Positions 977-31,400 of a stretch of DNA of 64,000 nt are shown here, piece after piece. The DNA comes from Mobula hypostoma (lineage: Eukaryota). The stretch is from the NCBI RefSeq assembly GCF_963921235.1, contig NC_086097.1:50904001-50968000 (forward strand). The letters run 5' to 3'. The number at the start of each line of letters is the position of its first letter. Positions within the stretch are counted from its first letter, which is position 1. Both the position numbers and the translations under genes were made by a program. The notes under the pieces are model-generated. The model saw only the letters and a program-made list of their open reading frames with translations. It was not told the DNA's origin and ran no database searches.

Positions 977-3900
977 CTGCAAGTAGTATACAAGTCAATC
1001 TAAATTCTATTTGACAGCTTCATATTGTAACACATTAACACACCGTGTTTATTTCCAGTATTTAATATCCTGAACTATTCACTATTAACCAGTCATATTT
1101 TTTAATTTGTTGTTTCACCATACCATTCATTTCTATCTGTATTCCATGAGCACTTAACAGGTTATTCTCCATGATATGTTCATATTTTTCCATTATTTTC
1201 TTTTAAATGCAATTTATCAGTATGACCTTCAATTCTGATTAAGGGACTATGCATCCAAAGCAAAGTTCTCTGTGCTAATCCTATCTGAAAAGCTGCATTC
1301 CCTGTATTTCTAATACCATATTTTTTCAATCAGACAGACATTTGATTGCAGATGTTTCAGTACCAGTCATGTTTTACCTGGAGCTAATTGAAAAAGGAGA
1401 CTATAGAATGTGGAATAGCATTCCAGTATGAAGAAAGCAGACTTAACATTGTTTCAATCCTTAACAGTACTAGGTTTTAAACATTTTTAAACAACACTTA
1501 ATTCTACAAAATGAAGTTTCCTTACCTGGGTATTATCTTATCAGGAAAACGATGTGTTTGAATATGGGATGCTAACCCAGGTTTCTTTGCCTGTTCAAAT
1601 AAGCCAACTAGGTTGTGTGAATAAAGCTGAAACGTTTTACCTGCAATTGTAGAGAAACATGACCATTAATGTCAAAAAATTGACAACTAAAATCAAAATC
1701 TGGCAGGCAAAAAATGGCATAGAAAATTTAGACTTTGGTACAGGCTAGATGTAGCCACATGTAGAGAAAAGGCACAGCAAACAAAACCAGAGCTCACGGC
1801 ATCATGGCAAAACAAATGGAAAGTATGAGGCAGAAAGAGCAGACACATGACAGTGAGATCCAGATTGAACATACAATACTCAGAGGGAAGTGAAAAAATA
1901 AGGTTAGAGAGACAATGCAAAAATAGCTGCTAACATGATCTTCTGTCTACTTCTAATCAGTAAGTGACTAGGACAAGGACTGGGATTGATTCAGGACCTA
2001 ATCTATTCATGGAGGCTGGGGGCATGACTGAAATGTATAACGAGTCCTCTGTCCCTCTGTCTTACTAATAAAAAGGGCGCATCCAATGTAGAAATAAAGG
2101 ACATACTTATTATTTGGCAAGATTGTAGTATTGGAAAGGCTATAAAAGTCACTAGACCAAAAGGGTGCATCTTTGGTTGATGGAGGGAAGTAGAAAATGC
2201 AGGACTGCTAGCCATAATTGTAAAATCCTCCTTGAATATGTTCTTGTTTGAACTTAATATGTACAAGGACAAACTTACAGGATAGTTAGCTTAACCATGT
2301 TGGTGGGGAAAGCTTTAAAAAAAAAATCAGGGAAATGAATTAATTTGGAAAAATCTGAATAAACAAGGGGAGAACCAGCCGAGTTTGTCCTTGTACATAT
2401 TAAGTGTGCTGAGAATGGGTCCAGATTTCATGGTATTCCTTGTGTGAGATATGAGAACTCTGGGAAACCTCCAGTCTTCCTGATAACTACATCTCCATGA
2501 AGTGTACCAAGCTGCCAGTGGATGACCTTCAGCTCATACAGGAAAATAAAGAGGTGATAGATAGGAGCTACCTTAAGTTACAGGAGACAGGTACCTAAAT
2601 GAACATCAGGAGAGAGAAAAGCAGCCAGTCCAGTGCACCCCTATGAACATTCCCCTCCACAATAAGTATACCACTTTCCTTATGGTTGGGGGGGGGGGGA
2701 GGAGGAGGGTGATGACCTGCCAATGGGAAACCGCAGACACCAGGCCTCTGGCACTGAGTCTGACACTGTGGCTCAGAAGGACAGGTGGGGGCGGGGGGGC
2801 GTGGAATTAGAGGAGTGCAGTAGTAATAGGGATCCCATAATTAGAAGAGCAAAAAGCAGATTCTGTGGACATGAAAAAGACACCCAGATGCACGTGCCAG
2901 GATTGGGGATGTCTCAGATCAGGTCCACGGCATTCTAATGGGGGAAGGTGAACAGCCGGAAGTTGTGGTACATATAGGTAACAACAGTAGAATCATAGAA
3001 AAAGTACAGCACACACACAGCATCTGGTCCATGCCGAACCATTTAAACTGCCTACTCCCATTCACCTGGGTGACTATCAGGAGACAGAAAAGCCATAGCC
3101 CTCCATACCCCTACCATCCATGTACCTATCCAAACTTCTTGAACATTGAAATTGATCTTGCATGCACCACAACGATGCTGGCAGCTCGTTCCACACTTTC
3201 ATGACCTTCTAAGTGAAGTAGTTTCACCTCATTTCACCCTTTAAACTTTTCACCTTTCACCTCTGGTTTTCATCCCACCCAACCCATAGTGGAAAAAGCC
3301 TGCTTGCAGTTATGCTAACCATAAGCCCCATAATTTAGCATACCCCTATCAAATTTCCTATATTTTCCTACATAGGTAGGAAAAGGGAGGAGGTCCTGAA
3401 AAGAGAATATAGGGAGTAAGGCAGAGTGTCGAAAAGCAGGACATCCAGGGTAGTAATCTCTGGATTGCTACTTGTCCCACATGCCAACGATTTGGTAGAT
3501 GAATGCGTAGCTGACGAATTGGTACAGGGCAGGGCAGGGTTTCAGATATCTGGATCATTGTGATCTCTTCCACGGAAAGTATGACCTGTACAAAAAGGAC
3601 AGGTTACACCTGAACTCAATGGGAACAATATCCTTGTGGGCAGGTTTGCTGAGCTATTGGGGAGGGTTTAAACTAATTTGGCAGGGGGATACCAACAGGA
3701 GTAATTGGGCAGAGGATGGGGTAGTTACTATACAAGTAAATGCCGTGTGTAGTGAGACTGTGAGGAAGGACAGGCAGATGATAGGGCAAAATTAAAGTCA
3801 GTGGGATGAGTTAAAGTGTAACAGGGTCAAAATCAAAAAGGGTGATGAACACAGGATTGAAGGTGTCATATTTGAATGCATGCTCTATATGGAAAAAGTA

Positions 3901-6900
3901 GATGATTTTGCAGTGTAGTTAAAGATTGGCAGGTATGATGTTGTAGGCATCTGAGTTGTGGCTGAAGAAGATCATAGTTGGAAGCTTAACATCCAATACA
4001 TAGTATCAAAAGGACAGGCAACTAGGCAGAGGGGATAGGGTGGTTCAGTTGGGAAAAAAATGAAATCAAATCCTTAAAAAGAGGTAATATAGGATTGGAA
4101 GATGTCGTCGTGGCTATCTCTCGAGGTCAAGGATGATGGTCTTCGTTCTGTTGATCTACTTATGGGCTCTCAAGTGGCTTGAGTCCAACCTTGGCTTTGA
4201 AAGTTCTTCCGCATTCAGGACAGGTAGTTCCAGATGGCAGATCGCGCTTTGGTTGTTGCTGCCCCTCTTTCCATTTTCTTCTCTTTTCTTCTAATTCTGC
4301 ACATCTGTTGGCTTCGAAAGTTGCTGTTCTTTCTCGGATGATGGCTTGCCAGAGTTTCCTGTTCTTGGCATTGGTTTCCCAATTGTTGATGTCGATGCTA
4401 CATTTCTTCATGTTGGCTTTGAAGACGTCTTTGAATCTCTTCTGTTGTCCGCCTCTTTTACGTTTGCCTTCTTTAAGCTGGGAGTAGAAGATTTGTTTTG
4501 GCAGATGCTCGTCTTTCATCCGAACAACATGACCACTCCATCTTAGTTGGTTCTTGATGACATAGGCTCCAATGTTTGTTGTTTTTGCTTCATATAGCAC
4601 ACTGACATTGGTTCTTCTATCTTCCCAGCTGATATTTAAGATGTTTCGAAGACAGCATTGATGGAACTTTTCAAGTGCCTTCAGTTGTCGTCAGTATGTT
4701 GTCCAGGTTTCTGATGCATACAGGAGCGTTGGGATTATCACTGCTTTGTACACTAACATTCTGATGTCTGTTCGGATGTCACGATCATGAAAGACTCTTG
4801 TTTGAAGACGTCCAAAAGCTGTTCTAGCGCATTTAAGATGATGTTGGATCTCGTCATTAAGGTCGACACTGGAATCTTATGGATAGAGTTAAGAAACTGA
4901 TGGGAGTTATATATAGGCCTCTGGACAGTAGCCAGGATGTGGGCTACAAATTACGACAGGAGATAGAAAAGGTGTGTATAAGGAGCAATGTTGCGATAAT
5001 CATGGGGGAATTTCAATATACATATAGATTGGGAAAATTTGGTTGGTGCTGGATTCCAAGAGGTAACTTGTAGAATGCATATGAGATGACTTTTAAAACA
5101 GTTTGTAGTGAGTCCAATAGGGGACTGGCAATTCTGGATCAGCTGTTATGTAATGACCCAGATTTGATTGGGGAGCTTAAGGTAAAGGAACCCTTAGGAG
5201 ACAGTAATCAAAATGATAGAATTCACCCTGCAATTTGAGAAGCTAAAATCGGATTTATCAGTATTACAGTGGAGTAAAGGGGATAACAGAGGCAAGAGAA
5301 AGGAGCTGGCTGAAGTTGCTTGGAAGGGGACACTAGCATGGTTGATGGTAGAACAGAATTGGCTGCCAATACAGGGGGAAATTCGGAAGGCACAGGAAAG
5401 ATACATCCCAAAGATGAAGACGTATTTTAAAGGAAGAATGAGGCAATTGTAGCAGATAAGGGAAGTCACAGACATCTCTAAAGCAAAAGAGAGGGCATTT
5501 AATATAGCAAAAATTAGTGGGAAGATAAAGGATTGGGAAGTTTTTAAAAACCAACAGAAGGCAACTAAAAAGCTGTAAAGAGAGAAAAAATGCAATATGA
5601 AGGTAAGCCGCCCAATAATATAAAAGAGGATACAAAAAGTTTTTCAGATATACAAAGGGTAAAAGAGACAGAAGTTGATATTGGACTATTGGAAAATGAC
5701 GCTGGAGAGGTAGCTTAGGGGATAAAGAAGTGGAAGATGAATTTTGGGCCAGTATTCACTGTGGAAAACACAAGCAGAATGCCAGAAATGCGAGAAGTGA
5801 GGGAGCAGAAGTGAGTGTCGTACCTATTACTAAGAAGTGGCTTGGGAAGCTGGGAAGTCTGAAGGTAGATAGGTCACCTAGACCTGTGGACTACACCCCA
5901 GCGTTCTGAAAAGGTTGGCTGAAGAAATTATTGATGCAATAGTAGTGATCTTTCAATTATCACTAGATTCTGGAATGATTCCAAAGGACTGGAAAATTGC
6001 AAATGTCACTCCACTCTCTAATACTGGAAGGAGGCGGAAGAAAAGAAATTATAGGCCAGTTAGCCTGACTTCAGTGGTTGGAAAGATGTTGGAGTCTATT
6101 ATTAAGGATGAGGTTTTGGGGTACTTGGAGGCACATGATAAATAAGGCCAAATTCAGTATGGCTTTCTGAAGGGGAAATCTTGCTTTACAAATCTGTTGT
6201 AATTTTTTGAGGAAATAACAGGGTGGATAGTGGATATTGTTTATTTGCATTTTCAGAAGGCCTTTGTCAAGGTGCCGCACATGAGGCTGCTTAACAAGGT
6301 AAGAGCACATGATATTACAGGAATGGTACTAACATGAAAATCAGATTGGCTGCCTGGCAGGAGGCAAAGGTTGGAAATAAAGGGGCCTTTTCTGGTTGGC
6401 TACTGGTGACTAATAGTATGCCACAGTGGTTGGAGCTGGGATCGCTTCTTTTTACATTATATGTCAACAATTTGGATGAAGGAAATAATGGCTGTATGGC
6501 CAAGTTTGTAGACGATACAAAGATAGGTGGAGGAGCAGGTAGTGTTGAGGAAACAGGGTGTCTGCAGAAAGACTTGACTCAAATTGGGGTTAATGGGCAA
6601 AGAAATGGCAGATGGAATACAATGTACGGAAGTGCACGAACTTGGCAGAAGGAATAACGGCGAAGACTATTTTCTAAGTGGGTAGGAAATTTAAAAATCA
6701 GAGGTGCAAGAGGAATTGGAAGACCTCATGCAGGATTTCTTATAGTTCAACTTGCAGGTTGAGTCGGTGCTGAGGATGGCAAATGCGAAGTTAGCATTAA
6801 TTTTGAGAGGGCTAGAGAGCCAAAGCAAGGATGTAATGCTGACTCTTTATAAGGCATTGGTCAGTCTACACTTGGAGTACTGTGAGCAGTTTTGGGCTGC

Positions 6901-9900
6901 TTATCTAACAAATATGTGCTGGCATTGGAAAGAGCCCAGAGGTGATACACAAGAATTATCCCAGGAATATAAAGCTTAACATATGAGAAGCTTCTGATGG
7001 CTCTGGGCCTGTACTTGCTGGAGTTTAGAGGAATGGGGAGGGGGAAGGGGAAGGGGAGGGAGTAGTCTGGCTACCTGTCTCTACAGCAATAAGACTCAAT
7101 TGTGTGTCCCCATTTGGGACAGATAACAAAAATAGAGACTCCTTTTGCTTGCATTTAATCAGACTCTTAATAAGTATTTTATAACTGATTAAAAAACACT
7201 ACTATTTGAATTAATTGCTGGGTGGCAGTGTGCATACATTATCAAGAAATGAGGTTTCCATGCACTGATAATGTGGCTGAATCACAAATAAACAGAGGCA
7301 AGGACGTGGCTCTGAGATGGGCAGATGGGTGGATGGGACCTGAACTGGAGGCAAAAGCCCAGAGTGAACTCACTGAAAGCTGATGCAGTCCCAAACCAGA
7401 GCAAAACCCCTTCCACACTGTGGCTGGATACTGTTGTGCTGCTGAGATCAATACAGATATGGAATGTAACATTAATAGTTACACAATTTCTTCCCTTTTA
7501 CCAAAAATATTAGAGAACTTCCAAGTTTTTACAGAACTCCACTGTGAACAGTTAACAGAGAAATGTAATTGATCATTTAAGTGTACAATCTGGCAATGTC
7601 CAGGTGTCTCTCAACACAATGGGCCAAGAATGTTCATAAATATGCACTTCTTTGTACCACATAGAAATATAGCAAGTGCAATGTAATGTTCCACAAGTAA
7701 CATCTAGCACCCACACCCTAAATTGAGTTGATCAGCAAAACTTTAGTCCCAGCTCTCATGCTAGGATTAGGGTTAGTGCAAGTGTTTGGCAGCTGTACAG
7801 GTCCTGTAGACCTGGGCAGATCTCAAACAATGAAGATTGATGCTTCGAATCAAACCCATTGTCGTACTTGACAGACTGTAGTTACCTGATCCTATGCCCA
7901 ATAAAACCCAACAATTAGTTGGGCAGGGTTTGCTGAAGTTCAAGTCCAGGTCATTTCAATTTTGTACCAAGCAGGCATCTATGGTAGACAGCATTTATAT
8001 AGATTTACAGAAGGATTTGATGGAAGTTCCATATAAAAGTCAATTATCAAAATTGAAGCTAAAAAAGGGGGCCAGTTACAGAATGGAGGAGTAAGTGAGT
8101 TGGGGAAAGAAAGCAGATGCAGTAAATAGCTGTTTTCAGTCTAAAGGTTACTTTTTTAAAATATGTGATATTTGACCTTGAGTATGTCAGGTAAAATTTT
8201 AACATTTATGAGAAAACCTTAAAATGCAGTAAGAAAAGGGATTGTGACAGTGTTGAAGTGAACACTGGCTGATAGAAATGGCAAGCATATGGAATTATAT
8301 GGAAGTTAAATACTAGCTCACTGATATATCAAGTTCATTTAATCTTTCTACATCTCAATTTAACATAACGTTGATTTTCCAGTATCTGTCTATCCTCTTG
8401 TTTACAAGCAATGTCTCTTCCCCAATGCTACCTTCACTCCTCTTAATTCTCAGCAGTTCTGTTCTGCCATTCTCCTACTACCAAACATGATTCTTTATCA
8501 TAACAACATAATCTTTATTCCTGCACCATTTGCTTGTGCATTTTAGCAGCTTTTCTGGAAAGAGCCCATCACTTCTTTCCTGTTACACTGTTTGACACTT
8601 CTTTGGCACCCAGATACTTGATACTTCCAACAATTCCCACTATAACCAACCATTGTTTTTTAAAAAATAAATCCATAGTTACGTGACATCTTTTCAAGAA
8701 TCCAGTTTTGCCAATTTGCCTGCAAGATCTTCCAGAGATAACAAATACTTACCAACCACTTCCACAGAACCATATTTCCCCATGTGCATAAAAATCATGA
8801 ACTGTTTTATTTTGCTCATTTCTGCAGTTCCAAGTCTGAAACTCTCCAATCAGGTTTCTACACCTGCCTTGGTATTAAACAGTATCAGTCAGAAAAGTCA
8901 ATTTGTAGTTCTTCTTATGCTATGGAAGCCCCTGAAGCCTTTTATATGATTCAGGAGGATCATGGCTGATCAGATGTTTGGCTCAGCAAATTTTTGCTCA
9001 GTCCTAAAATTCATCTCAAGTTTGAAGCTCTCTGGGACAGAAAATTTCAAAAATAAATAACTCATTCCTTATTCAGTCCATCGCTCTTCCCAAGAGAACT
9101 CCACCAAAATAAGTATCCTCACAGCACTTACCACTTTGGAGTGTTTTCATTCAACATGTTCAATCTTCTTCAAAACTTAAGAATAAAGGTCTTTTGCTAC
9201 AGCCCTCATCCTAGTTATCAATTTAGTGACCTTCTGTCATGTTTCCACAGCAAAGATTTCTTTAATCAAATAGGATCAACACAGTGAATGTTGTTCCCTG
9301 AACCCCAAGTATATCTGTAGCACAATTTCCTTACTTGTATAGTCCAAGCTCCTTGCATTAGAACAATTTCCTTCATTATTTGTTGTACTTCACACCAACT
9401 TTGTATTTCTTATACGTGGACACCCAGTTGTCTCAAAAAAAATACAACAGTTGGTAGTCTCATCATTCTATTTGAATAACAATGCATTGCTATTCTGTTA
9501 TTCCTTGTTATTCTGGCCTCTATCCCAAACATCAACAGTTAATTTCCCTCCATAGATAATGCAAGACATACAGAGTTCCTCCAGCATTTTGTGTGTTGCT
9601 CAAAATTTCCAGCATCTGTAGAATTTATTTTGTCTCTGTTTTGTTATTCTTTGTCAAAATGACTAACATCATGTTTTCCCACTAAATATTTCACTTGACA
9701 TCCTTTTGCCCATTCACTGACACTAGTCATATTCATTTACAGACACAGTCCTTTTCACGGCCGAATCAAGTACAGTAATCTAATAGCGATGCTGGGATGC
9801 CACATCTGAAGAATAGGCATTTAACTGGAACATATTGACTCAATATAGTGACAGCAGAAAGACTTTAACCATACATACAAAATTTTAAAACTAATTTACA

Positions 9901-12900
9901 TACAGGAAATAGGAGTCTTATGCTTGAGACTAATATAAATATACCTAAAATGTGGACAAGGAGTTAGCTCACAACAATGACAAAAGTACTTTAAAATCCA
10001 ACACATTACTAAGACCTAACAATCAAAGAAGAACAGCATCAGGAAAAAGTGAGAGAAGGAAAAAATATACACAAGGAGGAAGTGAAGTGCACTCAAATAG
10101 AAGGTTAGGAACACACTATAGATTTAAATTCTGATTGATTTTTAGTTTTTGAATAACAACAGGATTGCTTTAGCTAAGGACATGAAATTGCAAGGTGTGT
10201 TTTAATGCTGTACTTTGATATGTGAACAGCTAAGGATTTCACATTAAAACATGCAAAAACACAGAAGACTGAAATTCTGATTACCTTCTGCACCCAGTGA
10301 TCAGTATGATTAGGAAACAAAGTGAAGCCATTGTGTGAAGAGGAAAACAAAAGACATTTGATTAAGTTCACACACACATATTTAGACAAACAGCTATCAT
10401 AAATAGTAAATGAAAAGCCCATGGATTATTTTGGATAAATCCACAAAACAAAACAGATTTTAAGGTCATAAATATACAAGACTGTGGATGTTCTTTAGTA
10501 CCTTAGATAAATTTCTTATCTTCTGGTAATTGCTTAATACAGGGGTCCCCAACCTTTTTTGCACCACGGACCAGTTTAATATTGACAATATTCTTGTGGA
10601 CCGGCCGACTGGGGGGGGGGGGGGGGTGTTCAAGTAGGGTTAAACTCACCTCAACATGTCTTCCACAGTTAGGGTTGCCAACTTTCTCACTCCCAAATAA
10701 GGGACAAAAGTAGCAATCAAATCCCGGGACACTTTACCCCAGGAATGAGTACCATGACACCTTGCGCGGGCACCTGTGTGTGCATGCGTGACGTGCAAAT
10801 GCGCGTACATGCCAATTTTTTTCCCCATTTGCCTTCATCTTCCCGACTATACTGTACATACATTATTTCTACTTTACATAGGCTGTGTATTTATCATATC
10901 ATTCCTGCTTTTACTATATGTTAGTGTTATTTATTTTCAATTTTGTGTGTTATTTGGTATGATTTGTTAGGTTATTTTTTGGGTCAGGGAACTCTCAAAT
11001 TTTTCCCATATAAATAAATGGTAATTGCTTCTTCGCTTTACGCCATTTCAGCACGAAAGGTTTCATAGGAACACTCTACCTTAGTGGGGGAAATGCAGGA
11101 CAAACCAATTTAGCCCAATATACAGGATGTCCCAGCAAATACGGGACAATTGGCAACACTATGTTCAAGTTCAACAGTGCCTGACAGGGAATGAGGAAAG
11201 GTGCAGCTGACACATATCGTTTCCTCACGGCCCGGTGGTTGGGGACCGCTGGCTTAATATAACACACCTTATAATTTAGCGTCTCAACCCAATCCATGCA
11301 GTACCTCTTCACTTGTCTGCTTCTCATATCATGTACTGACCCTGTCAAAAATATTTTATAATATGACCTTCTCTCATTGCTCTTCTTTACTGCACTGATA
11401 TCAAAGGCAAACTTGCCATGCATTTTAATTGCATAATGCATGTGAAAGACTGCAGGAACGATGTTTGGCCTCTGCACGTCAGCTGATATGAGGAGGTGAT
11501 AAGTTAATATGTTTTCATAAATAAGGGGCATAGGAGCTGGAGCTGCTTTTTAAAAATGCGTTTAGCATTTGATGGGGAGGATAGAGCTTGTTGCAGGATT
11601 GAAGTTAGTACTCCCATTCCCACTTCTGTCAAGTAAGTGACGTGTACTAATAGTTATTGTAGCTGACTTTAGTTTTGTTTCAATAAGCAATAATCGCGCC
11701 TCGGGTAAACCTCATCGGCTACGATATCCTATTCCTTTCATCTTGTTCCAGATGGCTACCTTTGATATACTGTTGTTTACAGTTCTGAATATCTGTAGAT
11801 TCTATAAGCTTTCATTGGATAACAGTCAGCTATCATTTCTCTTTACATTACTCCTTTGCATTTAAGAGATGCAAGCTGCTTAGTGCTGTCTTGTTTGAGA
11901 TAATAAAAATATTAGTTCAAACCATTCTTTTGCCAAAATCAGATCTCAAAATGCTAAATTAAAGGCAGAGGCTTCCTTGACTACATTTATAATTATCACC
12001 TTATGAGTCTTTCACACACAAATAGACTTGTTGGGTCAGAAAGTTGTACTTTTTGTAAAAATACAAATAAAACAATGTGACAAGTTAATTTTTAGTGTCT
12101 CAGGTCTTCCTCACCCTTTTCAATCAATTTCAATACCCTTAGTTTCTTTATCTTTGGAACAAAATTTACTTTTCCATCAAATATAGTTCATAATCAATCT
12201 GCAATGTATTTTTCAAAATATTCATGAAACATTGATATATTTATTAAGAAGATTTATTATGAAAAAGCAGGCACAAGAAATAACCATGCTTTTTGGTCCA
12301 CCATCCAACTAGATAACCTTGGTTAAAACCACTCAGGTTTTCCAAGATCTGTGGTCCAAAAATAAGTGGGCACCATCATAAAGCATATCACTTAAAAATT
12401 TTATTAGTGCCCCTGTCTGCAGAACACCTATCAGGGTCAATGCTGATCACAAACACAGCAAAGCAAGTGTTCTCAAACTGAAATTACTGAAAAGAGACCA
12501 GAAAACAATGATGCCCGACATTCCAGTATGTTTGTATAAGAAAAGAAGCCCAAAGTCACTGTGACTTTACTCATACACGTGAATTAATTCTGTGAATTAA
12601 ACTATCCATATTCCACATGATAGTTTATTTATATGAATCATGGGAATATTAAAAAAGCTGAAAAGGATAAGTAATAAATTATTAAAGAGGGAGGCGAAGA
12701 TGGCGGCGCGACGCAGCGCGCACAGCCATTCCGAATGATATCGTATTTGTGAAGTAGGATGCCGTGCATGATCCTGATTTCACAGAGACAGACGTGGAGA
12801 AGCACGGAGGAACATCTGCAGAAACTTCTGAAATGCCTGCTTCGTTGCCGCTGCTACTGTGCGATCGAGAATCTCCGGAGGGAAGGCCCCAAATCCTCGG

Positions 12901-15900
12901 CCTTGCCTATTGCCTGTTGCCGGGACTGGGGTCGAAGCACTCGGCCAAGATGGTGCTCAGTGCATCGGTGTCGGAGAGCTGGTCGGAGGCTCGGAGTTTT
13001 CGGACGGACTCGGAGTTGGACTGTGGTCGGATGTTTCCGGGATGCTGCACTGGCAAGTTTGCGGTGCTGGAGGTTTACCGTCTGTGTGAGATGATGGGAC
13101 TTTCGAGAGACTGAGACTTTACTGTGCCCATGGTCTGTTCTTATCAAATTATACGGTATTGTTTTGCACTGTTGTAACTATATGTTATAATTATGTGGTT
13201 TTTGTCAGTTTTTCAGTCTTGGTTTGTCATGTGTTTCTGTGATATCATTCTGGAAAAACATTGCATCATTTCTTAATGCATGCATTACTAAATGATAATA
13301 AGAGGACTGTGTATCCTCATAATCCAAGTCTAATCTAATCTAATCTAATCAATTTTTCATTGCCTGCAGTGAAAGAAATACACTATTTTCATAGGAAGTG
13401 AATTAAAGTGCCCTTATAAATTTCTAATTTTGCCTTTTTCATTTAAGCAGAAAACAATGACATGATATTAAATTTCAATAACCGAGCATAATTCATGTAT
13501 CATTCTTAGGCTCAGCCAAATGGATACACACCTGATAAAGACATTAAAATGTCATTGATCACATAAAGCCAGGTACATCTTCGAGGAAAAAGCTGGAAAA
13601 TACATCTGTATTAGTATGCGTTGAAAAATTCAAGAATAATTAAATGAAGCTTTTTTCGTGATTTTTATTAATGACCTGGATGTAGGGATAGAAGGGTGGG
13701 TTGGCAAGTTTGCAGACGACACAAAGGTTGGTGGTTTTGTAGATAGTGTAGAGGATTGTCGAAGATTGCAGACAGACATTGATAGGATGCAGAAGTGGAT
13801 TGAGAAGTGGCAGATGGAGTTCAACCTGGAGAAGTGTGAGGTGGTACACTTTGGAAGGACAAACTCCAAGGCAGAGTACAAAGTAAATGGCAGGATACTT
13901 GGTAGTGTGGAGGAGCTGAGGAATCTGGGGGTACATGTCTACAGATCCCTGGAAGTTGCCTCACAGGTAGATAGGGTAGTTAAGAAAGCTTATGGGGTGT
14001 AGGCTTTCATAAGTCGAGGGATAGAGTTTAAGAGTCGCGATGTAATGATGCAGCTCTATAAAACTCTGGTTAGGCCACACTTGGAGTATGGTGTCCAGTT
14101 CTGGTCGCCTCACTACAGGAAGGATGTGGAAGCATTGGAAAGGGTACAGAAGAGATTTACCAGGAACGTGCCTGGTTTAGAGAGTACGGATTATGATCAG
14201 AGATTAAGGGAGCTAGGGCTTTACTCTTTGGAGAGAAGGAGGATGAGAGGAGACATGATAGAGGTGTACAAGATATTAAGAGGAATAGACAGAGTGGATA
14301 GCCAGTGCCTCTTCCCCAGGGCACCACCGCTCAATACAAGAGGACATGGGTTTAAGGTAAGGGGTGGGAAGTTCAAGGGAGATATTAGATAAAGTTTTTT
14401 ACTCAGAGAGTGGTTGGTATGTGGAATGCACTGCCTGAGTCAGTGGTGGAGGCAGATACACTAGTGAAATTTAAGAGACTACTAGACAGGTATATGGAGG
14501 AATTTAAGGTGGGGGGTTATATGGGAGGCAGGGTTTGAGGGTCGGCACAACATTGTGGGCCGAAGGGCCTGTAATGTGCAGTACTATTCTATGTTCTATG
14601 TAACTAAGCTGGGGCACAAAACATCCCATTCTTCAAAATATGCTGTATTTCTAATTACCAACCCCTAACCACCATCACATCCAGACAGAGCAGAGATAAT
14701 CCATCATTCATACTCATCATGCTTACCTGCTCCATTGAAGCTTCATGAAGTTCATTCAGATTTAATGTATAAATGCCTTCATCAGTTCCAAAGATTAAGT
14801 ACTGATCTAATTTAAAGGGAAAAAAGACAGCATTCATGTATTTGTTTCAATACTATAAAACTACTTGATTAATATATCAATGCCAATGCAATCCCTGACT
14901 AGCTTTCATTACCTTTTGTCTCGGGATGTATCCAGGAGGTAGCACAATTTATCTTCAAAGGACACCCATCAAATACCTTAGTAAAACAGGCTCCCATCTA
15001 ATGTAAAACATATTGACACAATTGCAAATTTAAAGTCCAGAATAAATTTGTCAGTTAACAGTAAAGAATTGAAAGTGGTAGAAGACAAATGCATCTAATT
15101 AAGTCATAAAATACAGGACAAAAACAGGCCTTTCAGCCCAGCTTGTCCATGCTGACCAAGATGCCTATCTAAATCTAGTCCCATTTTTTGGCATTTTGCC
15201 CATTTTTCACTACACATTCTCCTTTTAAATGTTGCTGTTGTGCCTGGCTCAACCTCATTTCCTCTGACAGTTTGTTCCATATACACACCACTCTGTGTGG
15301 AGTTGCCCCTCAGGTCCTTTTTAAACCTTTCCCCTCTGATATTAAGCCCATGCACTCTCGCTTTTGATTCCCTTTCCCTGGGAAAAAAGACTGTATTCAC
15401 ATTATCTTTGCCCCGCATGATTTTATAAACCTCAATAAGGTCACCTCTCAGTCTCCTGTACTCCAAGGAACAAAGCCCTAGCTTGCCAAACTTCTCCCTG
15501 AAACTCAAGCTTTTTGAGCAATATTCTGATAATTTTTGTTTTGCACTCTTTCCAGCTTAATGACATCATTCCTAGAATAACCAAAACTATACAGAATATT
15601 CCAGCATCATCAATTACAACATAATACTCTTAACTCCTATACTTAGTGCCCTGACTCATGAAGGCAGCATGCAAACACCTTCTTCATTACCTGTTTACCT
15701 GTGATGCCACTTTCAGGGAACCTTGTACTTGTACTCCTGGGTCCCTTTACTCTATAGCACTTCTGAGCCCAAATTACCAACATGGCTATCATTAAAAGCA
15801 TATAATCACAATTTAATACTCCAAAGCACTGCTGAATTCAATATCAGAACATTTAATTGATTGCAGCATCTATTTATTTTCATTTGCCTGAACATTTTCA

Positions 15901-22400: not shown

Positions 22401-25400
22401 AGATGGTGTCTGATAACTATAGGGCTAGTTCCCAATCAAAATTGTGTAATGACCAATTCAACCTACGTAGCACAAAGTTCCCTAATTCACCAATTGTGCC
22501 ATGTCTGATTTACATTATAACACAGGTACAGTAGTTACATAATGTAAATCAGAGCTGAAAGTGGGATGCAAATTGTAACCAGCCACAAGGTCATTTTTAT
22601 GTTCTACACCTGATCAGTGTTAACCCCATAAGTGGAGCAGAAGATCAGACATTGTAATAGCAAGTACATATTGGCCTATTGACTTTAGAAATAGCAAGAA
22701 CCTTTAACAGAAAAATTCATCTGAAACCTGAGAGCCAGTTGTTTCTATAATAAAAAAGGCATATGCAGAATTTATATATATATTGCTTCAAGAGATGCAA
22801 TGATTTTATAAGATTGTTTAAAAACTATGTAGAGACGTACAGGGAAATCTTTTTTTTCTTTTCTTCGAGGTAATACTGGAGGATGTTCACCATTTAAGCC
22901 TGAAGGACCTTCTGAAACATTTGAACAAATACAAAACATATTACTCGTGACTGACAATATTTCTAAAGAGAAATGAACTCTAAATTACGTTGAACATTTT
23001 ATCAAGCTCCATGTACAAAAGCAGTTTGATCTACACCTCCCCGTAAAACTGCTCACACACAACCACTAAGAAATGAATATCCACATACAAAAACCTGCAA
23101 CAGCTGCTTGAAAAACTTTACAATCAGAATCATGGAATAAAGATGGTTCTCAAGACATTTGGGGAGGGCAAGTTATAATCTTAAGTTTTTAATAAAAAGA
23201 TTGAAATAAATAAATATGTGGGCTACTTGTTCAGCACACTAGAATTTTGGTTTCTTAGCTTCACTGTTATCCAGAAAATCATTAATTGCTTAATGATTTA
23301 TTTGCTTAATGGTTAAACCTTCGCTAATCAAACTACATGGCATTTAAAATTTAAAAAAATACACAAAAACTGGGCATCACTGGCAGGACCAAAGTGTAAT
23401 GCTTAGAAAGAAGATCAAGGTGAGCAGAACAAAGCAATTAAACAAGATGTAACTTAAAATATACTTAATGTCTATAAAACTGCAAACATCTGTTCAACAA
23501 TAAAGACCAAAAGATTGGACACATTCCTGTAATATAAATTAGCAACAGCTCTGTAAGCAAAAAAGATTTTTATTCATTCATTGTTTAGCTATAATGGGTA
23601 CATGTTTCTTTTGGTATTGATTTATTACTGTCACATGTATCAAGATACAGTGAAAGCTTTTGTTCATGTGACATTAGCAAAAAAAAGGAAAACCAAATTC
23701 AGATCATAATGCTGTTTTTGATCTTTTATTCTGTGTATTCTGATAAAATGGTCAATTTGGTCCAAAAACAATAATGTGTAAAAACTGCTTTTTGATAATT
23801 GATTCCAAGGCAATTGAATTGCACTTTCTTTTCCTGAAAAGCAAACTTTGCATGTGATTCTCATTTTTTTTTCAATTATGTACAAGTTAGACTAGGTCTG
23901 ATGTACAAATCCTACACACAAAAAAAAAATCTGAAACTGTTCACAGAGGATGCAAAAGCTTTATAGGCTTAAGAAGATTTCCTGCACTTAACAAATTAAT
24001 GGACAAGTATTTTTGAAGGTTTATTAGACTATTAATGGAGGGAAACCAACATTAATGAATTCCAAGTGCAAGCGAAAATATTCCAAAGTGGTGACTTTGC
24101 TGTTTCTATTCATTAACACTATTACATCCAGCAACTTAAAATAGTATTCCTCAGGACTTCACCAGAATGTGTTACTTGAAATCAACTGCAAGACAGAGAC
24201 CATGATTAGGCCAATGACACTGTTCTCTTTTACTACCAAAAAGTTGGGATTATAATGGAATTTAAAGAATATCAAGGATGCCTATAAATCAATTTATATT
24301 AGTTTAAAACCCACTTATCCTGTGGTGAACAGGAAGTACTACATGCTGACTATGTAGAGATATAAATAGGTAAGCTGCTTTACAGTGATCTGTATAGTGA
24401 ACCCCTTTTCACATTTAATTTCTTTACCTAAATCACAGGTTCTGGTATCAAGCAATCCTGGGCTACTGACGCTGTTAGAAAGGGCTGATTCAACCATCTC
24501 TGATTGATATAAGGATGTTGGAGTACTCTGTCTTCTTGGCACAGCTGATGGTCCATTTTTGGTACAAGGCTGCCGCTTGATCGTCAGAGAACTCTCTTCA
24601 TCTGGAAGATCTGAAACACTGCGCATTCTTGGCTATAAAAGTAATAGGTGATTTTAAGAAGAGGAAATATCCAGCTCTAGCTGATTCAGTTTCTTAAGCA
24701 AACCCTTTTCCAGTGCACTTGTAATAACAGCCAACTAATGAGCGGATTAGATTTGTCTCCCATTAAAACTGGTGGAAAGGAAAATCAGCGATTTTCAACT
24801 ACCATTTTTATACTTGAAGTTGAAAGATTTTGCATTTCCCCAACTGCCCTGAGGAGGTGATGGTGAACCGCCTTGTTGAACCATTGCAGCATCTGGTGGA
24901 AACATCCCACAATATTATTGGGCAGGAAAATCCAGGATTTAGACCCAGGAATAAAAGCCAGGATTACAGAATTACAAAAATAGTTATGAGCATTAAGCTT
25001 AACAAATCCATTCATTAATTTGTTTTTTGCAAATATAAATGAGAATCTATTCAAATGTTATTTTGAATAGGCTACAGCTAATAATATTAAGTAGCAGTAC
25101 TACTAATAAAATGTAGCAGTAATATACAGTTGATTACAAATTTATCATTATAAATAACTCAAAAAAGCAAATCACTATTGATTGAAAATGGTTGGATGCA
25201 ACAAACAGAAATCTACTCACAAATGTACTTAACCACATTCTCTTTCAATGTTAAAAATTAACCAGCAAGTTAAAAGTTCCTCTGTGATTTATGGCAAGTA
25301 GACTCACCTTTGGTGGAAGTGGAGGTGGAGTTACAACTGCTCTTTTAAGTGTCGACCTTATGGAAAACAGCAAGTATTTTAATATTTATCAAAGAGTACA

Positions 25401-28400
25401 GCCAGAAAATAAGCAACTGAAAAGTGTTAACTATAACACCAAGCTAAAAATACTCAAAATTTTAATTCATTTTATCGGAAACATAATGAAACAATGGTGT
25501 GATAGTTACTCTACTAACCTAGAGGTGCAGATAACAAACAGGAGATGCAAATTCAAATACACCATGGAAACTTGATGTATTTCAACTCACATTTCCAGTT
25601 CCAAACTATTTACTTTACTGCATTTATATTCAGTTGCAGGATCCAAATTTTAGAACTTCCTACTCAACTGCTTTATGGATTTCTTTCATTCCATATTAAG
25701 GGGTACTTACAGTGCATTGTCAAAATCCTCCTCTTGGTGTGCTATGTGTCCCCTAAAACAGTGAATGAGCATTTTACTTTACTTTATATAAAAGTACTTT
25801 CCTTGGAACTAAATTAGCAAATAATAATGCAGTACTTCAAAGTAAAGCATACACTTTACCTTAATATTCACATGCATTTCAAAAAATCGCAATTTAAATA
25901 TATTGAGTAATCTATCTACCATCAAATCACGTCAATACACTCCATCTTGGGTACTAGACTACAAAGTACCCTGCTGCTAAGTTAACAAATTTCACGTCAC
26001 ATGCCTGTGATAATAAACCTGATTCTAGAATACTTACATATAAATGATTTAGAAAGATTTCACAACATCTGAACACACAAGGTTCTTTTTCTCCAAATGA
26101 AGTTTATGAATCCAAACAAGACCGTTATACAAAACAGTTATGCAGAGTTAATCTATATTTTGAAATTACTGTATACTACAGAACTTGTTTAGAGCCTTTC
26201 TATTAATGTTTAAAATAAAATTGTGCTAATTCTAATTCTACCCTGCTTTTTACAATTCGTGAGTTAGGAGGCATGCTGTTGCTCAAAACACCTTACAATG
26301 ACATACTAGATTAACACTTCAAGTTAATTAATTCACCTTCGCATTGGCCCTGTCTCAGAGATTGGATAACCATTTCAGAATCTGTTCAATTCACATGACA
26401 AGTAGAAAATTGAAAACCCAATTGTAGAGTCAACTGTTCAGGTGTTCTATGTTTTACCAAAATATAATTGATGGTGCTTTTTTTTTAAGCAATAAGTATA
26501 ACATTTCGTAACAGCTGTGAAAAGGATAAATATATTGCTTATAATCTAACCTTTTTGGCAGAACCACTCAAGTGTAGTTAGATCTTATTTAAAAGTTTTT
26601 TTTTGCTCAAACACAGTCATTAACAGAAAATTCTGCCTGGGTGTTGCTTGTGGTCACAGGATGCTTACAATACAAAATAACCACCCGAACCCCCTCTAGG
26701 ACCACCACTGAATCTGACATAAAACACAAATATATCAATGGAGACATTGCAGCCACGGATATAATTCTTGCTCAACAGATTTAAGACTACTACAAATTAG
26801 AACACGAGAAATGTACAAATTGTAGAGATGGACAAGGTACGCTTCAAACCATAGAGTCCCTTGCTTCACATTCAACTGTAACTGATCTCATAAAAAAAGT
26901 TCACTTTTCACTCAGTTAGGCTTTCTCCACATTTAAAAATCTCATAACCTCAAGCTAAGATTATAAGTGTTCTTTACATAACATTTCAAAAAAAATAATT
27001 ATTACAGTTTATGCTATTTGTATTTCACTTATTGTAATGCTAGAAAGCAACAGGTACCAGCACTGGTACCGTGGGTTGTTCTTTAAAGATGAAGGTGCAG
27101 ATCCTTATTGTGATCAAACTCCATGGCAAATGGGCAAGAAAATGAAACAATGGATTAATAAATATGGGTTAGGACTTGAACCGGAGAGCCACAGAGTTCA
27201 TGCAAAGAGTCAAATTAAAGATACAAATATGTCAAATGATGGATGACTGTTAATGAGTACATCATGGGTAGAAAATAATTCTACGACATATTCTATATCA
27301 AGTAACTGGAGGCTGAAAGAAATTAGTGGCATCAGACATGGTGTCAGGGATGGTTTGTGGCAAATATTTTGCTGAGTGAAAAGCTGCAGCTTCAGCAGAT
27401 ACTCTATGGAATCAAGGAAATAATTTAGCTGATATTTCAATACAGTGCTCCACTGTCCTACAGAATACATTTTAAGCATTTTGTTTTTATTTCAGTTTTC
27501 CAGTATCTAAGTATTTTCCTTAAAAGTCAACATACACAAAACTGATTTAAATGAGATTATTGTTGACATTCTTTTTGAAAGTGAATCAGATTGAGGAACA
27601 GGTTGTTGATTCAATAATGTAGTCAATGTTCTTTAGGTGGCTAGCCTGAAAAAAGGATCTAGAAAGGGAGATCCTTTAAAATAAGCACTATATTTAGAAA
27701 AAATTATATAGGTATAAAAATTTGTTAAGCAATTAATTTCCTGTAGTTGACACATGAATCTTATCCAAAAAGCAATGCCATCTTTAGTAGACTTTCTACC
27801 ATGCAATCATACAGTAAAATTGATACTATAACATTTTGTGATCGGACTTAAAATCCAGATGGATACAGTGAAAAGTCATGCACCAATTTTAAAATTTAAG
27901 TCACCGTACTTGCATTGTGTTCAATCACCCTTCAATTTCAATTCTTATAGTCTACATCACTAATTTAAGAAACAGTTGGGAAAATTTAGATCCCATTCCT
28001 TTCCCACAATTCATGCTGTGGCGTGAATGAAATCACCGGAGGGAGAGTTACTGGTATATAAAGAGCAGCTTCTTTATTCGACAAAACCAGGTTCAGCAGG
28101 CATCATACAGACAGAGATGCTTTCAGTGGAAAGGTCTGCTGCTCAACATGGGGCTTGATATTTATTTGCTACACACAAAGAGCAATTCATACTTACAAAG
28201 TATAGACAATGCTTTCTTTTGAAGCTACATACAAAACTTAACACCTGATTACATTCATTCGACAGATGCCAGCAGGTCTGCGCTGGTATTCAGTTTTTGG
28301 GAAATGCATTGCTACAAGCGGACTCGGATTCTGATATTCACAGCTTTTAGGAAATGCATTGTCACAGAAGACTGGTGGCTAAAGTCATTTGCTAAGTGTG

Positions 28401-31400
28401 AATGACTTAAACCCAAAAATTACTCTAACATACAATTTTACGGATCATTCGCCTGAAGAATTGACACATCCTTATATTAACTTACTTATTTCCTCCATCT
28501 GCAAATGGGCTCCACGATGACCCAAATCCTACGTCTTTGGTTACCTCCTGTTTAAAATATTTAGCAGTTTTCTTAAAACTTCTTTATTTTTATAGAAACA
28601 TTAACACACTGAAGAGTCCCTTTTCCAAAGAAAGCACATATTTGACATTTTTAAGCTGCTTAATATATTGTTTTTGGCAAATTAATTAAATTGTGCAGTA
28701 GATAGCTTTAGATCCATTAAATTCAGTTTATGTCACCCATTTACAATGACGCCATTTGCTAAGAGTAGATTTGCATTACCAAAGCAAAATGACACAACGT
28801 AAAAAGGATCTTAAACCATTGTCTAATTTTTATTTTGCCAAAATGTTCAAGACTGATACAGATAACTACTCTGGTCACCAAACATTGAGGAGAATGCAAT
28901 TTTGCAGAAGAGGAGATTCACCAGGATGCTGCCCAAATTGGAGAACTTTAGTTATAAAGGGTGGTTGCATAGGCTGGGCAGGTGTTCCTGGAGTAAAAGA
29001 GGCTGGTGGGTGACTTAATAAAGTACATAAGATTATGGGAAGAACAGATATGGTAGATAGTCTATCTTTTCCCTCCATAAAAACAGATGTTGAGATATAA
29101 AAAAAAACAGAAGAGCATAGGTTTAAAGCAAAAGGAAGGGAAGGGGTTTTAAGGGGATCAGAGAGGTAAGTGTTTTCTTTTAACAGAGTGGCTGATACCC
29201 AGAATATCTGACAAAGGTGATGTAATCAGATACAATTACTAATTTAATAGGCAAGACATCGAAGAATAGAGTCCTAATGTAGGCAAATGAGATTAATGCA
29301 AATAGTAAAAAAACATCAGCATGAACATAGTGGGCTGAAGTGCCCATTTCTGGATGCTCTATGACTCCAAAGGATTTCCTGGAAGGTGAAGTTTTGATTG
29401 TATACTTTTAGTGTGGGTGCAGAAAGGAATAATTGAATATGTTATGCAAAGCAACAAAATATTATATTTTATTGACAAAAATATGATTGCTGATCAATTT
29501 CTAAGAATCATCCAACAGTCCTGTGTAGCAAGTTGATTTGGTAAGAGCATACCCATGGGGAGAGGTAGAGAGATTTACTTGATTACAGAAATAATACACA
29601 AATTAACTTAATTTCTGAATAACTGAAGGATGAAATTCAGACCTTACCATTTCACAGTGAGCCTCAGTTTCCTTTCTCAAAGGAGGTTCAAACTGCATTT
29701 TGTCAACTGTAAAGATAATTTTTAAAAAATCAAATGCTAATTTCACAAAATGCAAAATGTTTTATGATACCCCTGTCAGTAGTTTGAATGGAGAGCATGG
29801 TTAATATGCACAGCCAAGCTGTGCACTGCAATATATTTATTCTCCAATGTCAAGAACACGTTATTGCATCAGATTGAATCTAAAACACCAGAATAAGTCC
29901 CTCATTCCTCTTTTGCTCTATTTACTTTTCTAAATTAGAGTAACTTTTATGCCTACAACTGCTACAAAACAAACTTCACGATGTGTGTCAGTAATGATAA
30001 ACCTCATTCTGAAGTTTGTAGATGGCACTAAAATAGTAAAGAAGAGAATTAAGAATTGCAGTAGGTAGGTGAACTGAGGAATGGCAAATGGAAATTAACA
30101 TAGATAAGTGTAAAGTTTGGAAGTAAACTTTGAAAGGACAAATGGTAGAAATTTTACATTGAACGGAATAACCCTGAGTACTGTTGTACAACAAAGGGAT
30201 CTTGGAGTACACGTGCATAATTCCCTTAAAGTGGAAGCACAGTTTGTACGGCCAGTGAAGAAGACACTTAGTATGCTGGTCTTCATCAGCCAGGACATTA
30301 AATACAGAAGATAGGAGGTTATGTTACAATTGAACAAGGCGTTGGTGAATCTACACTTGGAATATTGTGTTCAAGCAGACAGAGTTCAACCTGTAAAAGT
30401 GTGATGCAATACACTTTGGAAGGGCACACCAACAAACAGAGCACAAAGTTAATGGTAGGATTCCTAGCAGTTCAATCTATGGATCCCTCAAAGTTGTTGC
30501 GCAAGTTGATAGGATGGTTAAGGTGTATGTGTGCTGGCCTTCACTAGTCAGCAGATTGAGTTCAAGAGCTGCGAGTTAACGTTGCAGCTCTATAAAACCC
30601 TGGTTAGACCACACTTGGAATACTGTGTTCAGATTTTGTTACTCATCATAGAAAGGAAGTGGAAGCTTTAGAGAGGATGCAGAGGGAATTTACCAGGATG
30701 TTGCTCCAATTAGAGAACATATCTTAGGAGGAAAGGTTAAGCAAGCTAGGACTTCTCTCTTTGGAGCAACAAAGGATGAGGGATGACTTGATAGACGTCT
30801 ATATAATAAGAGGAATGGATTGGGTAAACAGTTATCAGGGCAGTATGGCAAATACAAGAGGACATACTTTTAAAGTGACTGGCCAAAAGTATAGGGGGAT
30901 GTCAGAGGTGGGTCTTTTATTAGACACAGAGTGGTGGGTGCATGGAATGCACTGCCAGGGTGGTGGTAGAGGCAGACGCAGACGCAATAGAGACATTTAA
31001 AAGACTCTTATAGACTTGAATGCCATTACCTTCTAAAAAGAAAAGCCAACAAATATAATTTACAAAGTTTCATTCCCAGTTGAGCTCAATGTCTTTTATA
31101 CTCGCTTTGATCAACAGAACAAAGTAAGCCCACATGAACCCACTGACTCAGTGATCTCAGTCTCTGAGGCCGATGTGAGAGCATCTTTCAGGAGGGCGAT
31201 TCCACAGAAGGCATTTGGCCCAGATGGTGGACCTGGCCTAGTACTGAAAACCTGTGCTAATCATCTGGAGTGCTTATGGACATCTTCAACTTCTTGCTTC
31301 AGCAATCTGAGATGCTCACCTGCTTCACGCAGACATCACCAAAAAGTATATGGTAATCTGCCTCAATGACTATCACCCAGTAGCACTTACATCTACTTTA

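What the first reader, a model, noticed from the sequence alone, without database searches (positions are those of the whole stretch)
11671..11726. Isolated U4 snRNA K-turn module in sense orientation inside a MAP4K5 intron
Seen: a 49-nt minus-strand match to U4 nt 19-67 (3 differences from recalled human U4, at positions 29, 40 and 60), with its CpGs retained in a CpG-poor intron. No flanking TSD or poly-A is visible. Established: this part of U4 is the 5' stem-loop whose kink-turn binds SNU13/15.5K and PRPF31. Truncated U4 retrocopies usually keep nt 1, whereas this one lacks the U6-pairing stem II. Two of the changes fall in the K-turn bulge and terminal loop, so the hairpin still folds; the third breaks a stem I pair. 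Inference: either a recent templated insertion, part of an snRNA-derived repeat, or an exapted intronic protein-binding RNA element.
Basis: partly seen in the sequence, partly recalled or inferred. Interest (0 to 1): 0.7.

Follow-up and report, generated by a model that had tools for sequence, protein, structure and literature searches.

The report
Recent U4 snRNA fragment insertion
A 48-base piece of the splicing RNA U4 was recently pasted into an intron of a ray's MAP4K5 gene; related rays lack it at that spot, so it is an ordinary young pseudogene fragment, not a conserved RNA element.

Summary
The U4 match is real (Rfam U4 37.1 bits, E 2.6e-6, below the gathering score of 46). It lies in sense in a MAP4K5 intron, and its K-turn is intact. 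The site is empty in 3 of 3 other organisms laid, 1.1%, 4.0% and 7.9% diverged. The insert is exactly 11678-11725 (U4 nt 20-67), blunt, with no duplication, deletion or tail.

The three 'differences' are not private. Multicopy contigs in this organism and a relative match with 0 differences, and each change scores neutral in human RNU4-2. The donor is therefore most likely the rays' own U4. Youth explains the retained CpGs. Each run holds 2-5 other dispersed U4 pieces, some also 5'-truncated, and the 3' end sits at the known nt-68 truncation hotspot (PMC8457000).

Best reading: a neutral, probably RNA-templated patch of class 2 TSIP type. Side lead, untested: organism E carries a roughly 50-fold amplified sequence with the same U4 5' half and a non-U4-like continuation.

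The parts
11678..11725 (-). Inserted DNA, 48 nt = U4 snRNA nt 20-67 (5' stem-loop, stem I strand, first part of the T-loop)
   Evidence: Rfam U4 hit; runs X5 and X18 join 11677 to 11726, skipping exactly 48 nt with no letters between
11694..11724 (-). U4 5' stem-loop with kink-turn: C-stem pairs 26-47, 27-46, 28-45; bulge nt 29-31 (11716-11714); tandem G32-A44 and A33-G43; NC stem 34-42, 35-41
   Evidence: Pairs read off the sequence; the same hairpin is the MFE alone (-11.2 kcal/mol, z -1.1 and -1.9, not significant) and within 111 nt of context
11682..11689 (-). U4/U6 stem I strand (nt 56-63) with U at nt 60 (11685)
   Evidence: A60 in 40 of 40 U4-like loci kept; n.60A>T neutral in human saturation editing; U60 shared with multicopy contigs in runs X1 and X14
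11726..11726 (-). Target-site base that also equals U4 nt 19: 1-nt microhomology at the 5' junction
   Evidence: Present in the empty site of X5, X18 and X14 and also matched by the multicopy U4-type contig of X14
11671..11677 (-). Pre-existing target sequence (not inserted); 11676-11671 equals U4 nt 65-70, one base away from the junction: possible annealing site
   Evidence: Present in the empty site of X5 and X18, and replaced by six other letters in X14; the hexamer lies within 0-2 nt of 27 of 11,878 possible breakpoints in this intron (post hoc)
1641..13531 (-). Host intron of MAP4K5 (phase 1, about 11.9 kb, in the CNH-domain region)
   Evidence: tblastn of stored protein P0001; GT and AG ends printed
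13532..13592 (-). Upstream MAP4K5 exon (about residues 573-593 of P0001)
   Evidence: 100% identity over 22 aa; ends read
1525..1640 (-). Downstream MAP4K5 exon (about residues 593-631 of P0001; low end approximate)
   Evidence: 100% identity over 39 aa

Best explanation
A neutral, lineage-specific U4 pseudogene fragment made by templated repair or trans-retroposition. SHOWN: after the split from organism B (1.1% diverged), 48 nt identical to a multicopy U4-type sequence of this genome entered a blunt site in the MAP4K5 intron, with no duplication, deletion or tail. INFERRED: the donor is the rays' own U4, which would carry G29, C40 and U60. INFERRED: a T-rich broken DNA end annealed to the A-rich single-stranded T-loop of U4 RNA (nt 63-70), slipped, and was extended by a LINE reverse transcriptase or a repair polymerase through stem I and the 5' stem-loop. 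Synthesis stopped at nt 19/20, where U4/U6 stem II begins, and end-joining used 1 nt of microhomology. The piece is now transcribed only as part of the pre-mRNA; it may fold a K-turn and bind SNU13 briefly, but is degraded with the intron and has no selected role. That it is recent and unconserved is about 0.95; the confidence given is for the whole account, including an RNA template and U4 itself as donor.
For: Empty site in 3 of 3 other organisms (X5 and X18: skips 48, no letters between; X14: six letters for six). Flank divergence 15/1373, 31/769 and 106/1343. Multicopy identity: X1 45-nt contig, 0 differences, depth 69 against 17-18 for the locus; X14 48-nt contig, 0 differences over 46 nt, depth 355 against 6.05; X18 30 nt, 0 differences. 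All three changes are neutral singly in human RNU4-2 (+0.05, +0.02, +0.14); G29 occurs in 21 of 36 U4-like loci covering that position. The 3' end at nt 67 matches the truncation at position 68 seen in human U4 pseudogenes, with 51 of 97 lacking the 3' half (PMC8457000). Other dispersed U4 pieces: 5 in X1, 4 in X5, 3 in X18, 2 in X14. Junctions fit class 2 TSIPs (PMC5110952), and blunt joins occur among LINE inserts (PMC4245944). RT-bearing LINE fragments lie in the window (RVT_1 in 3 of 13 proteins scanned).
Against: No full-length ray U4 gene was seen. A60 is invariant in the 40 other U4-like loci kept. The 6-nt complementarity is one base out of register and was noticed post hoc. An RNA versus DNA template cannot be told from one junction. 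One individual per organism; contigs drop rare alleles. Expression was not tested.
Confidence: 0.65

Rival explanations
1. Same neutral, recent insertion, but copied from U4 gene DNA rather than RNA: a broken end invaded or annealed to a U4 gene, a repair polymerase (polymerase theta type; recalled) copied 48 nt, and the end was rejoined.
For: No TSD, no tail, short length, 1-nt microhomology and a nearby 6-nt match all fit end-joining with templated synthesis. Several donor copies exist.
Against: Both ends coincide with RNA-structure borders of U4 in the U4/U6 duplex (T-loop n.63-70; stem II n.3-16 per PMC13253345), and the 3' end matches the RNA-level hotspot. U4 pieces recur at many loci in every run, as an abundant RNA template would give.
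Confidence: 0.17
2. The donor is not working U4 but a U4-derived repeat or variant family shared by these rays (a U4-headed SINE or LINE, or an amplified variant array), and the insert is a fragment of its transcript.
For: In organism E two contigs at 50-59 times locus depth (28 times the deepest other contig) are identical to the insert over nt 19-64. The 148-nt one continues 118 nt, and the 30 letters shown resemble U4 only to about nt 76, with changes at 65, 66 and 77 (compared by eye). n.66A>G (-1.15) and n.77A>T (-0.94) are damaging in human U4. A60 is invariant in 40 of 40 other loci kept. snRNA-headed elements exist (SINEU, Tx1-Mar; PMC4494074), and unchecked notes of this scan describe a U4-headed LINE in another genome.
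Against: In organism A the multicopy contig keeps A65-A67 and is only 4-7 times single-copy depth, as a small gene family would be. No high-depth contig was laid in X5 or X18 (listed pieces account for all depth). All three changes are tolerated in human U4. The insert carries no element tail.
Confidence: 0.13
3. Exapted intronic element: the sense K-turn recruits SNU13/PRPF31 to the MAP4K5 pre-mRNA, or yields a stable small RNA, and is kept by selection in this one lineage.
For: Sense orientation, intact K-turn and hairpin folding in context; no empty allele in the one individual of organism A (which may be the source sample).
Against: Absent in 3 of 3 relatives, including one 1.1% away. Identity to the donor is what age predicts (0.25-0.49 changes expected in 45 nt, P(0) 0.61-0.78). 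Sense orientation is a coin toss. The site is far from both splice sites, and there is no processing or stabilising 3' element.
Confidence: 0.03
4. Not an insertion: an assembly artefact, or an ancestral fragment deleted in the other lineages.
For: Run X1 may be the source of the window, so it is not an independent individual.
Against: Independently assembled contigs of X1 cross both junctions with 0 differences (11260-11707 and 11697-12680). Shared substitutions put B with A against F and E, so an ancestral fragment needs at least two independent precise deletions, and it would not be identical to the donor.
Confidence: 0.02

Closest known systems
Class 2 templated sequence insertion polymorphisms / endonuclease-independent retrotransposition (PMC5110952; passages seen)
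   Same: Short copy of a distant sequence; no TSD, no poly(A); microhomology at a junction; donor intact elsewhere.
   Different: Described in humans as polymorphisms; the passages seen never mention snRNA (0 occurrences). Here there is no microdeletion, and polymorphism within the species is not shown.
3'-truncated U4 pseudogenes ending near position 68 (PMC8457000; passages seen)
   Same: 3' end at nt 67, at the end of the U4/U6 pairing region; no 3' stem-loops or Sm site; many dispersed copies per genome.
   Different: The human examples keep stem II and often have oligo(A) at the break; this one starts at nt 19/20 and has no tail.
Tailless retropseudogenes (PMC5322556; abstract and passages seen)
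   Same: 3' truncation in an A-rich single-stranded region, no tail, and a target with partial complementarity to the RNA at the truncation point; 5'- and 3'-truncated forms are said to be numerous.
   Different: Defined with 8-35 nt TSDs and therian L1; here there is no TSD, the complementarity is one base out of register, and the host is a ray.
SINEU and U1/U2-headed Tx1-Mar LINEs (PMC4494074; passages seen)
   Same: snRNA-derived sequence dispersed by retroposition.
   Different: Those heads are U1 or U2 and are joined to an element body; this insert has no body. Only the amplified sequence in organism E might be comparable, and that is untested.
U4 spliceosomal RNA, Rfam RF00015
   Same: 5' stem-loop, K-turn and stem I strand.
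   Different: Lacks stem II, the 3' stem-loop, Sm site and terminal stem-loop; 37.1 bits against a gathering score of 46.

Membership tests
Functional U4 snRNA gene (RF00015) | Rfam score at or above gathering (46 bits) | tested here: not met
   37.1 bits; no gathering-level hit
Functional U4 snRNA gene (RF00015) | Stem II strand (nt 1-18) | tested here: not met
   Upstream bases are host intron present in the empty site of relatives
Functional U4 snRNA gene (RF00015) | 5' stem-loop with K-turn | tested here: met
   All pairs, bulge and tandem G-A/A-G present
Functional U4 snRNA gene (RF00015) | 3' stem-loop, Sm site, terminal stem-loop | tested here: not met
   Match ends at nt 67 and host intron follows
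Functional U4 snRNA gene (RF00015) | PSE/DSE promoter and 3' box | not tested
   No scan run; the flanks pre-date the insert
Class 2 TSIP / endonuclease-independent insertion | No TSD and no poly(A) | tested here: met
   Empty-site joints skip 48 nt with nothing duplicated; no flush repeat
Class 2 TSIP / endonuclease-independent insertion | End-joining marks (microhomology, microdeletion or untemplated bases) | tested here: inconclusive
   1-nt microhomology only, which chance gives about one time in four; no deletion
Class 2 TSIP / endonuclease-independent insertion | Templated from a distant locus that stays intact | tested here: met
   Identical multicopy contig at about 4-7 times single-copy depth in X1
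Class 2 TSIP / endonuclease-independent insertion | Polymorphic within the species | tested here: inconclusive
   One individual laid, no empty allele seen; between species it is present/absent
Tailless retropseudogene | 3' truncation in a single-stranded A-rich region, no tail | tested here: met
   Ends at nt 67 within the T-loop n.63-70
Tailless retropseudogene | Target complementary to the 3'-terminal 2-18 nt of the RNA | tested here: inconclusive
   Hexamer equal to U4 nt 65-70, one base out of register; 27 of 11,878 breakpoints would show it, post hoc
Tailless retropseudogene | Target-site duplication of 8-35 nt | tested here: not met
   None
Tailless retropseudogene | Made by L1 machinery | not testable with these tools
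   No genome held; RT fragments in the window were not classified beyond RVT_1
SINEU-like snRNA-headed element | snRNA head joined to an element body and tail | tested here: not met
   For the insert: both flanks are host intron. For the donor and the amplified sequence in organism E: could not be tested
SNU13/15.5K-binding kink-turn | 3-nt bulge, tandem G-A/A-G pairs, flanking C and NC stems | tested here: met
   consensus recalled, region limits n.27-35 and n.41-46 from PMC13253345
SNU13/15.5K-binding kink-turn | Protein binding in the cell | not testable with these tools
   Needs a gel shift or CLIP
Exapted conserved intronic element | Present and conserved at the orthologous site in related species | tested here: not met
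   Empty in 3 of 3 other organisms

The most novel reading that the evidence does not exclude
The insert is a chip from a U4-headed mobile or amplified family in myliobatiform rays: a SINE or LINE whose head is the 5' half of U4, or an array of variant U4 genes with a rewritten T-loop and 3' half. It would be present at a few copies in this genome and about 50 copies in organism E. My searches found no such family for U4 in cartilaginous fishes.
Probability: 0.13. Interest if true: 0.55.

Novelty: new member of a known kind. Interest (0 to 1): 0.13.

Why it matters
As it stands it matters little: snRNA fragments of this kind are common in vertebrate genomes. It is a tidy example with a known empty site, and could serve as a presence/absence marker among devil rays and as one data point on how non-mammalian genomes capture snRNA without target-site duplication. 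Two by-products may matter more. The U4 of these rays appears to carry a stem I mismatch at a position that was invariant in the 40 other U4-like loci kept. A related ray holds a highly amplified sequence with a U4 5' half, which would be new if it proved to be a U4-headed retroelement or a variant-U4 array.

Tried and rejected
Whole-genome copy count: no genome is held for this window, so copy number rests on contig depth only. Rfam at gathering level: nothing in 64 kb; the SNORD111, mir-9465 and psRNA6 hits (E 4.2-9.6) were rejected as chance. Repeat search around the site: no direct repeat flanks the insert; no tRNA and no tandem array at the site. Folding z-scores (-1.1, -1.9, -1.8) are not significant and were not used as evidence of selection. 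Metagenome scan with a 19-nt part: 44 loci, none a ray U4 with U60; 4 of 44 (L028, L031, L036, L043) were dropped for more than 6 differences before the column counts. X18 has no cover beyond about 12042, which proves nothing. Absence of high-depth U4 contigs in X5 and X18 is not evidence of absence, because the tool drops human-like contigs. Mismatch positions inside the short U4 pieces are not listed by the tool, so I could not tell whether the older copies carry G29/C40/U60. The alternative alignment (nick before 11677, 1-2 target bases lost, insert = nt 19-69 lacking one A) cannot be excluded but needs more events than the blunt 48-nt insert. Earlier findings by sequence, near this place, and by one word set returned nothing. 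The literature searches gave nothing on U4 in sharks or rays. The bioRxiv paper 10.1101/2025.02.02.635956 mentions U4 once and not as a chimera (passages; its supplements are closed and could list U4 cases).

Full report
1. Observation. A cmscan of 10700-12700 finds U4 (RF00015) on the minus strand at 37.1 bits, E 2.6e-6, under the gathering score of 46; three other hits are chance level. No Rfam family reaches gathering in the 64 kb. The confidently aligned core is 11726-11678, U4 nt 19-67. The numbering first came from memory; I checked it against the human RNU4-2 reference letters at positions 29, 37, 38, 40, 60, 61, 65 and 66 in a supplementary table of PMC13253345, and against 44 loci fetched with a 19-nt part of the fragment. 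The differences at 29, 40 and 60 hold. The fragment has 5 CpGs against a window o/e of 0.27, no flush repeat and no tail.

2. Host gene. An exon at 43131-43262 matched MAP4K3 and MAP4K1 in the PDB and retrieved one protein among 5 candidates, named MAP4K5 of Pristis pectinata. tblastn placed the exons on the minus strand. Of the 11 cluster members, P0002 (named Mobula hypostoma) matches 521 of 522 residues over 20 exon stretches, and two M. birostris isoforms match 520, so the window is a devil ray or very close. The fragment lies in sense in the intron 13531-1641, about 1.8 kb from the donor and 10 kb from the acceptor.

3. The site is empty in relatives. I laid 4 of the 21 runs found. X5 (organism B) and X18 (organism F) each have one contig that joins 11677 to 11726, skipping 48 nt with no letters between. 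X14 (organism E) joins 11671 to 11726 with six letters where the window has six others. Flank divergence is 15/1373 (1.1%), 31/769 (4.0%) and 106/1343 (7.9%). Many substitutions are shared by F and E against A and B, so absence is ancestral and the insert arose on the branch to A. X1 (organism A, possibly the window's source, so not independent) has contigs across both junctions with 0 differences and no empty-site joint. The insert is thus 11678-11725, nt 20-67, blunt, with nothing duplicated or deleted; base 11726 is a 1-nt microhomology. Limits: one individual each, contigs only, and organism names are coded.

4. The three differences come from the donor. In X1 a 45-nt contig (11678-11722) has 0 differences at depth 69, against 17-18 for the locus and about 10 for other single contigs, that is 4-7 copies. 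The contig ends fit 31-mer branching exactly at the insert's borders, and two unlisted records account for the remaining depth between 11692 and 11739. In X14 a 48-nt contig has 0 differences over 11681-11726 at depth 355, and in X18 a 30-nt piece has 0 differences. So G29, C40 and U60 are older than the insertion. Among 40 U4-like loci kept of 44 (4 dropped for more than 6 differences), position 29 is G in 21 of 36, position 40 is C in 1 of 40, and position 60 is A in 40 of 40. In human saturation editing n.29A>G, n.40T>C and n.60A>T score +0.05, +0.02 and +0.14, with depletion called below -0.302. A working U4 can therefore carry each change singly. I infer that the donor is the rays' own U4, but I saw no full-length ray U4.

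5. No sign of selection. At most 0.25-0.49 changes are expected in 45 nt since the split from B (P of none 0.61-0.78). All 5 CpGs survive with P 0.31-0.57 under an assumed tenfold CpG rate. The K-turn is complete and folds in context (z-scores not significant), but that is inherited from U4. The fragment is also not alone: one search shows 5, 4, 3 and 2 other dispersed U4 pieces in X1, X5, X18 and X14, and three of them begin at about nt 29, 32 and 34 with unlike letters upstream, so 5' truncation is common here.

6. Mechanism. Shown: a blunt templated insertion without TSD or tail. Inferred: an RNA template. The 3' end at nt 67 lies in the T-loop (n.63-70; PMC13253345) and at the truncation point favoured in human U4 pseudogenes (position 68; 51 of 97 annotated genes lack the 3' half; PMC8457000; older reports of U4 pseudogenes ending at nt 67-68 are recalled, not seen, and one search found none). 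The target holds a hexamer equal to U4 nt 65-70 one base from the junction; 27 of 11,878 breakpoints in this intron would, but the test is post hoc and the register is off by one. The 5' end lies where U4/U6 stem II begins, a plausible block to synthesis. I propose annealing of a T-rich broken end to the T-loop, slippage, copying to nt 19/20, and end-joining. The enzyme is unknown. RT-bearing LINE fragments lie in the window, and unchecked notes of this scan report Keno-like Tx1 LINEs elsewhere in this genome. Blunt joins occur among LINE inserts (PMC4245944). A DNA template cannot be excluded (0.17).

7. Comparison with known kinds. It works like a class 2 TSIP or endonuclease-independent insertion (PMC5110952) and shares the 3' end rule of tailless retropseudogenes (PMC5322556), but it fails their TSD criterion, so I do not file it there. 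It is not a U4 gene and not a SINEU-like element (PMC4494074). What I saw of the papers: passages for PMC8457000, PMC4494074, PMC5110952, PMC4245944 and 10.1101/2025.02.02.635956; abstract and passages for PMC5322556; passages and supplementary table rows for PMC13253345; listings only for the rest. bioRxiv supplements were closed. Searches showed no paper on U4 or U4 pseudogenes in cartilaginous fishes; the library lacks most subscription papers.

8. The open lead. In organism E the sequence identical to the insert over nt 19-64 stands at 50-59 times locus depth (28 times the deepest other contig). Its commonest continuation (118 nt, 30 letters shown) resembles U4 only to about nt 76, with changes at 65, 66 and 77 (compared by eye). 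n.66A>G and n.77A>T are damaging in human U4 (-1.15 and -0.94). This could be an amplified U4-headed repeat or a variant U4 array. Notes of this scan describe a U4-headed or U4-tailed LINE in another genome (unchecked, genome unknown). Against it being the donor here: organism A's multicopy sequence keeps A65-A67 and is at low copy. I give this 0.13.

9. Verdict. Observation confirmed; interpretation partly supported (recent insertion yes, exaptation no). A new member of a known kind; interest 0.13. Expression, within-species polymorphism and the identity of the donor remain untested.

Noticed in passing
run X14 (organism E), records 12 and 13, laid on window 11681-11726: Contigs at depth 355 and 304.5 (locus 6.05) are identical to the insert over U4 nt 19-64. 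The 148-nt one continues 118 nt, of which the 30 letters shown resemble U4 only to about nt 76, with changes at 65, 66 and 77. Possibly an amplified U4-headed repeat or variant U4 array.
   Followed up: partly
runs X1, X5, X18, X14, records 2, 3, 5-7, 10, 11, 15-17, 21-24: Other dispersed U4 pieces with 0-9 differences. Two look orthologous in all four organisms (one reaching the U4 5' end, one starting near nt 29). One in X5 has a short U4 5' unit repeated head to tail upstream.
   Followed up: partly
window 10540-11251: hAT-like miniature element with an exact 8-bp target-site duplication (10532-10539, 11252-11259) and terminal inverted repeats matching at 14 of 17; the hAT label rests on recalled hallmarks.
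   Followed up: partly
window about 12686-13352 (+): SINE-like element with a GC-rich, CpG-rich head and a (TCTAA)n tail, antisense to MAP4K5 in the same intron; not classified.
   Followed up: no
window 45848-47611, 53559-54236, 13640-13999 (RT); 33032-33601 (hAT); 38265-38801 (Tc1-like HTH); 44643-45110: Decayed transposon ORFs in MAP4K5 introns: RVT_1 in three, a hAT dimerisation region, a Sleeping Beauty-type HTH, and ALKBH8_N on a LINE-like ORF.
   Followed up: no
L007, L018, L025: U4 nt 19-70 preceded directly by an inverted copy of the U4 5' region, in metagenome contigs of another animal: a 5'-inverted, 3'-truncated U4 retrocopy (read by eye). L014 and L023/L032 are 3'-truncated at about nt 77 and 67.
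   Followed up: no
window 24429-24632, 25308-25355, 25710-25751, 28485-28547 (-): Small exons of the MAP4K5 linker; the stored isoforms P0006 and P0007 mismatch whole exons here, as skipping would give.
   Followed up: no
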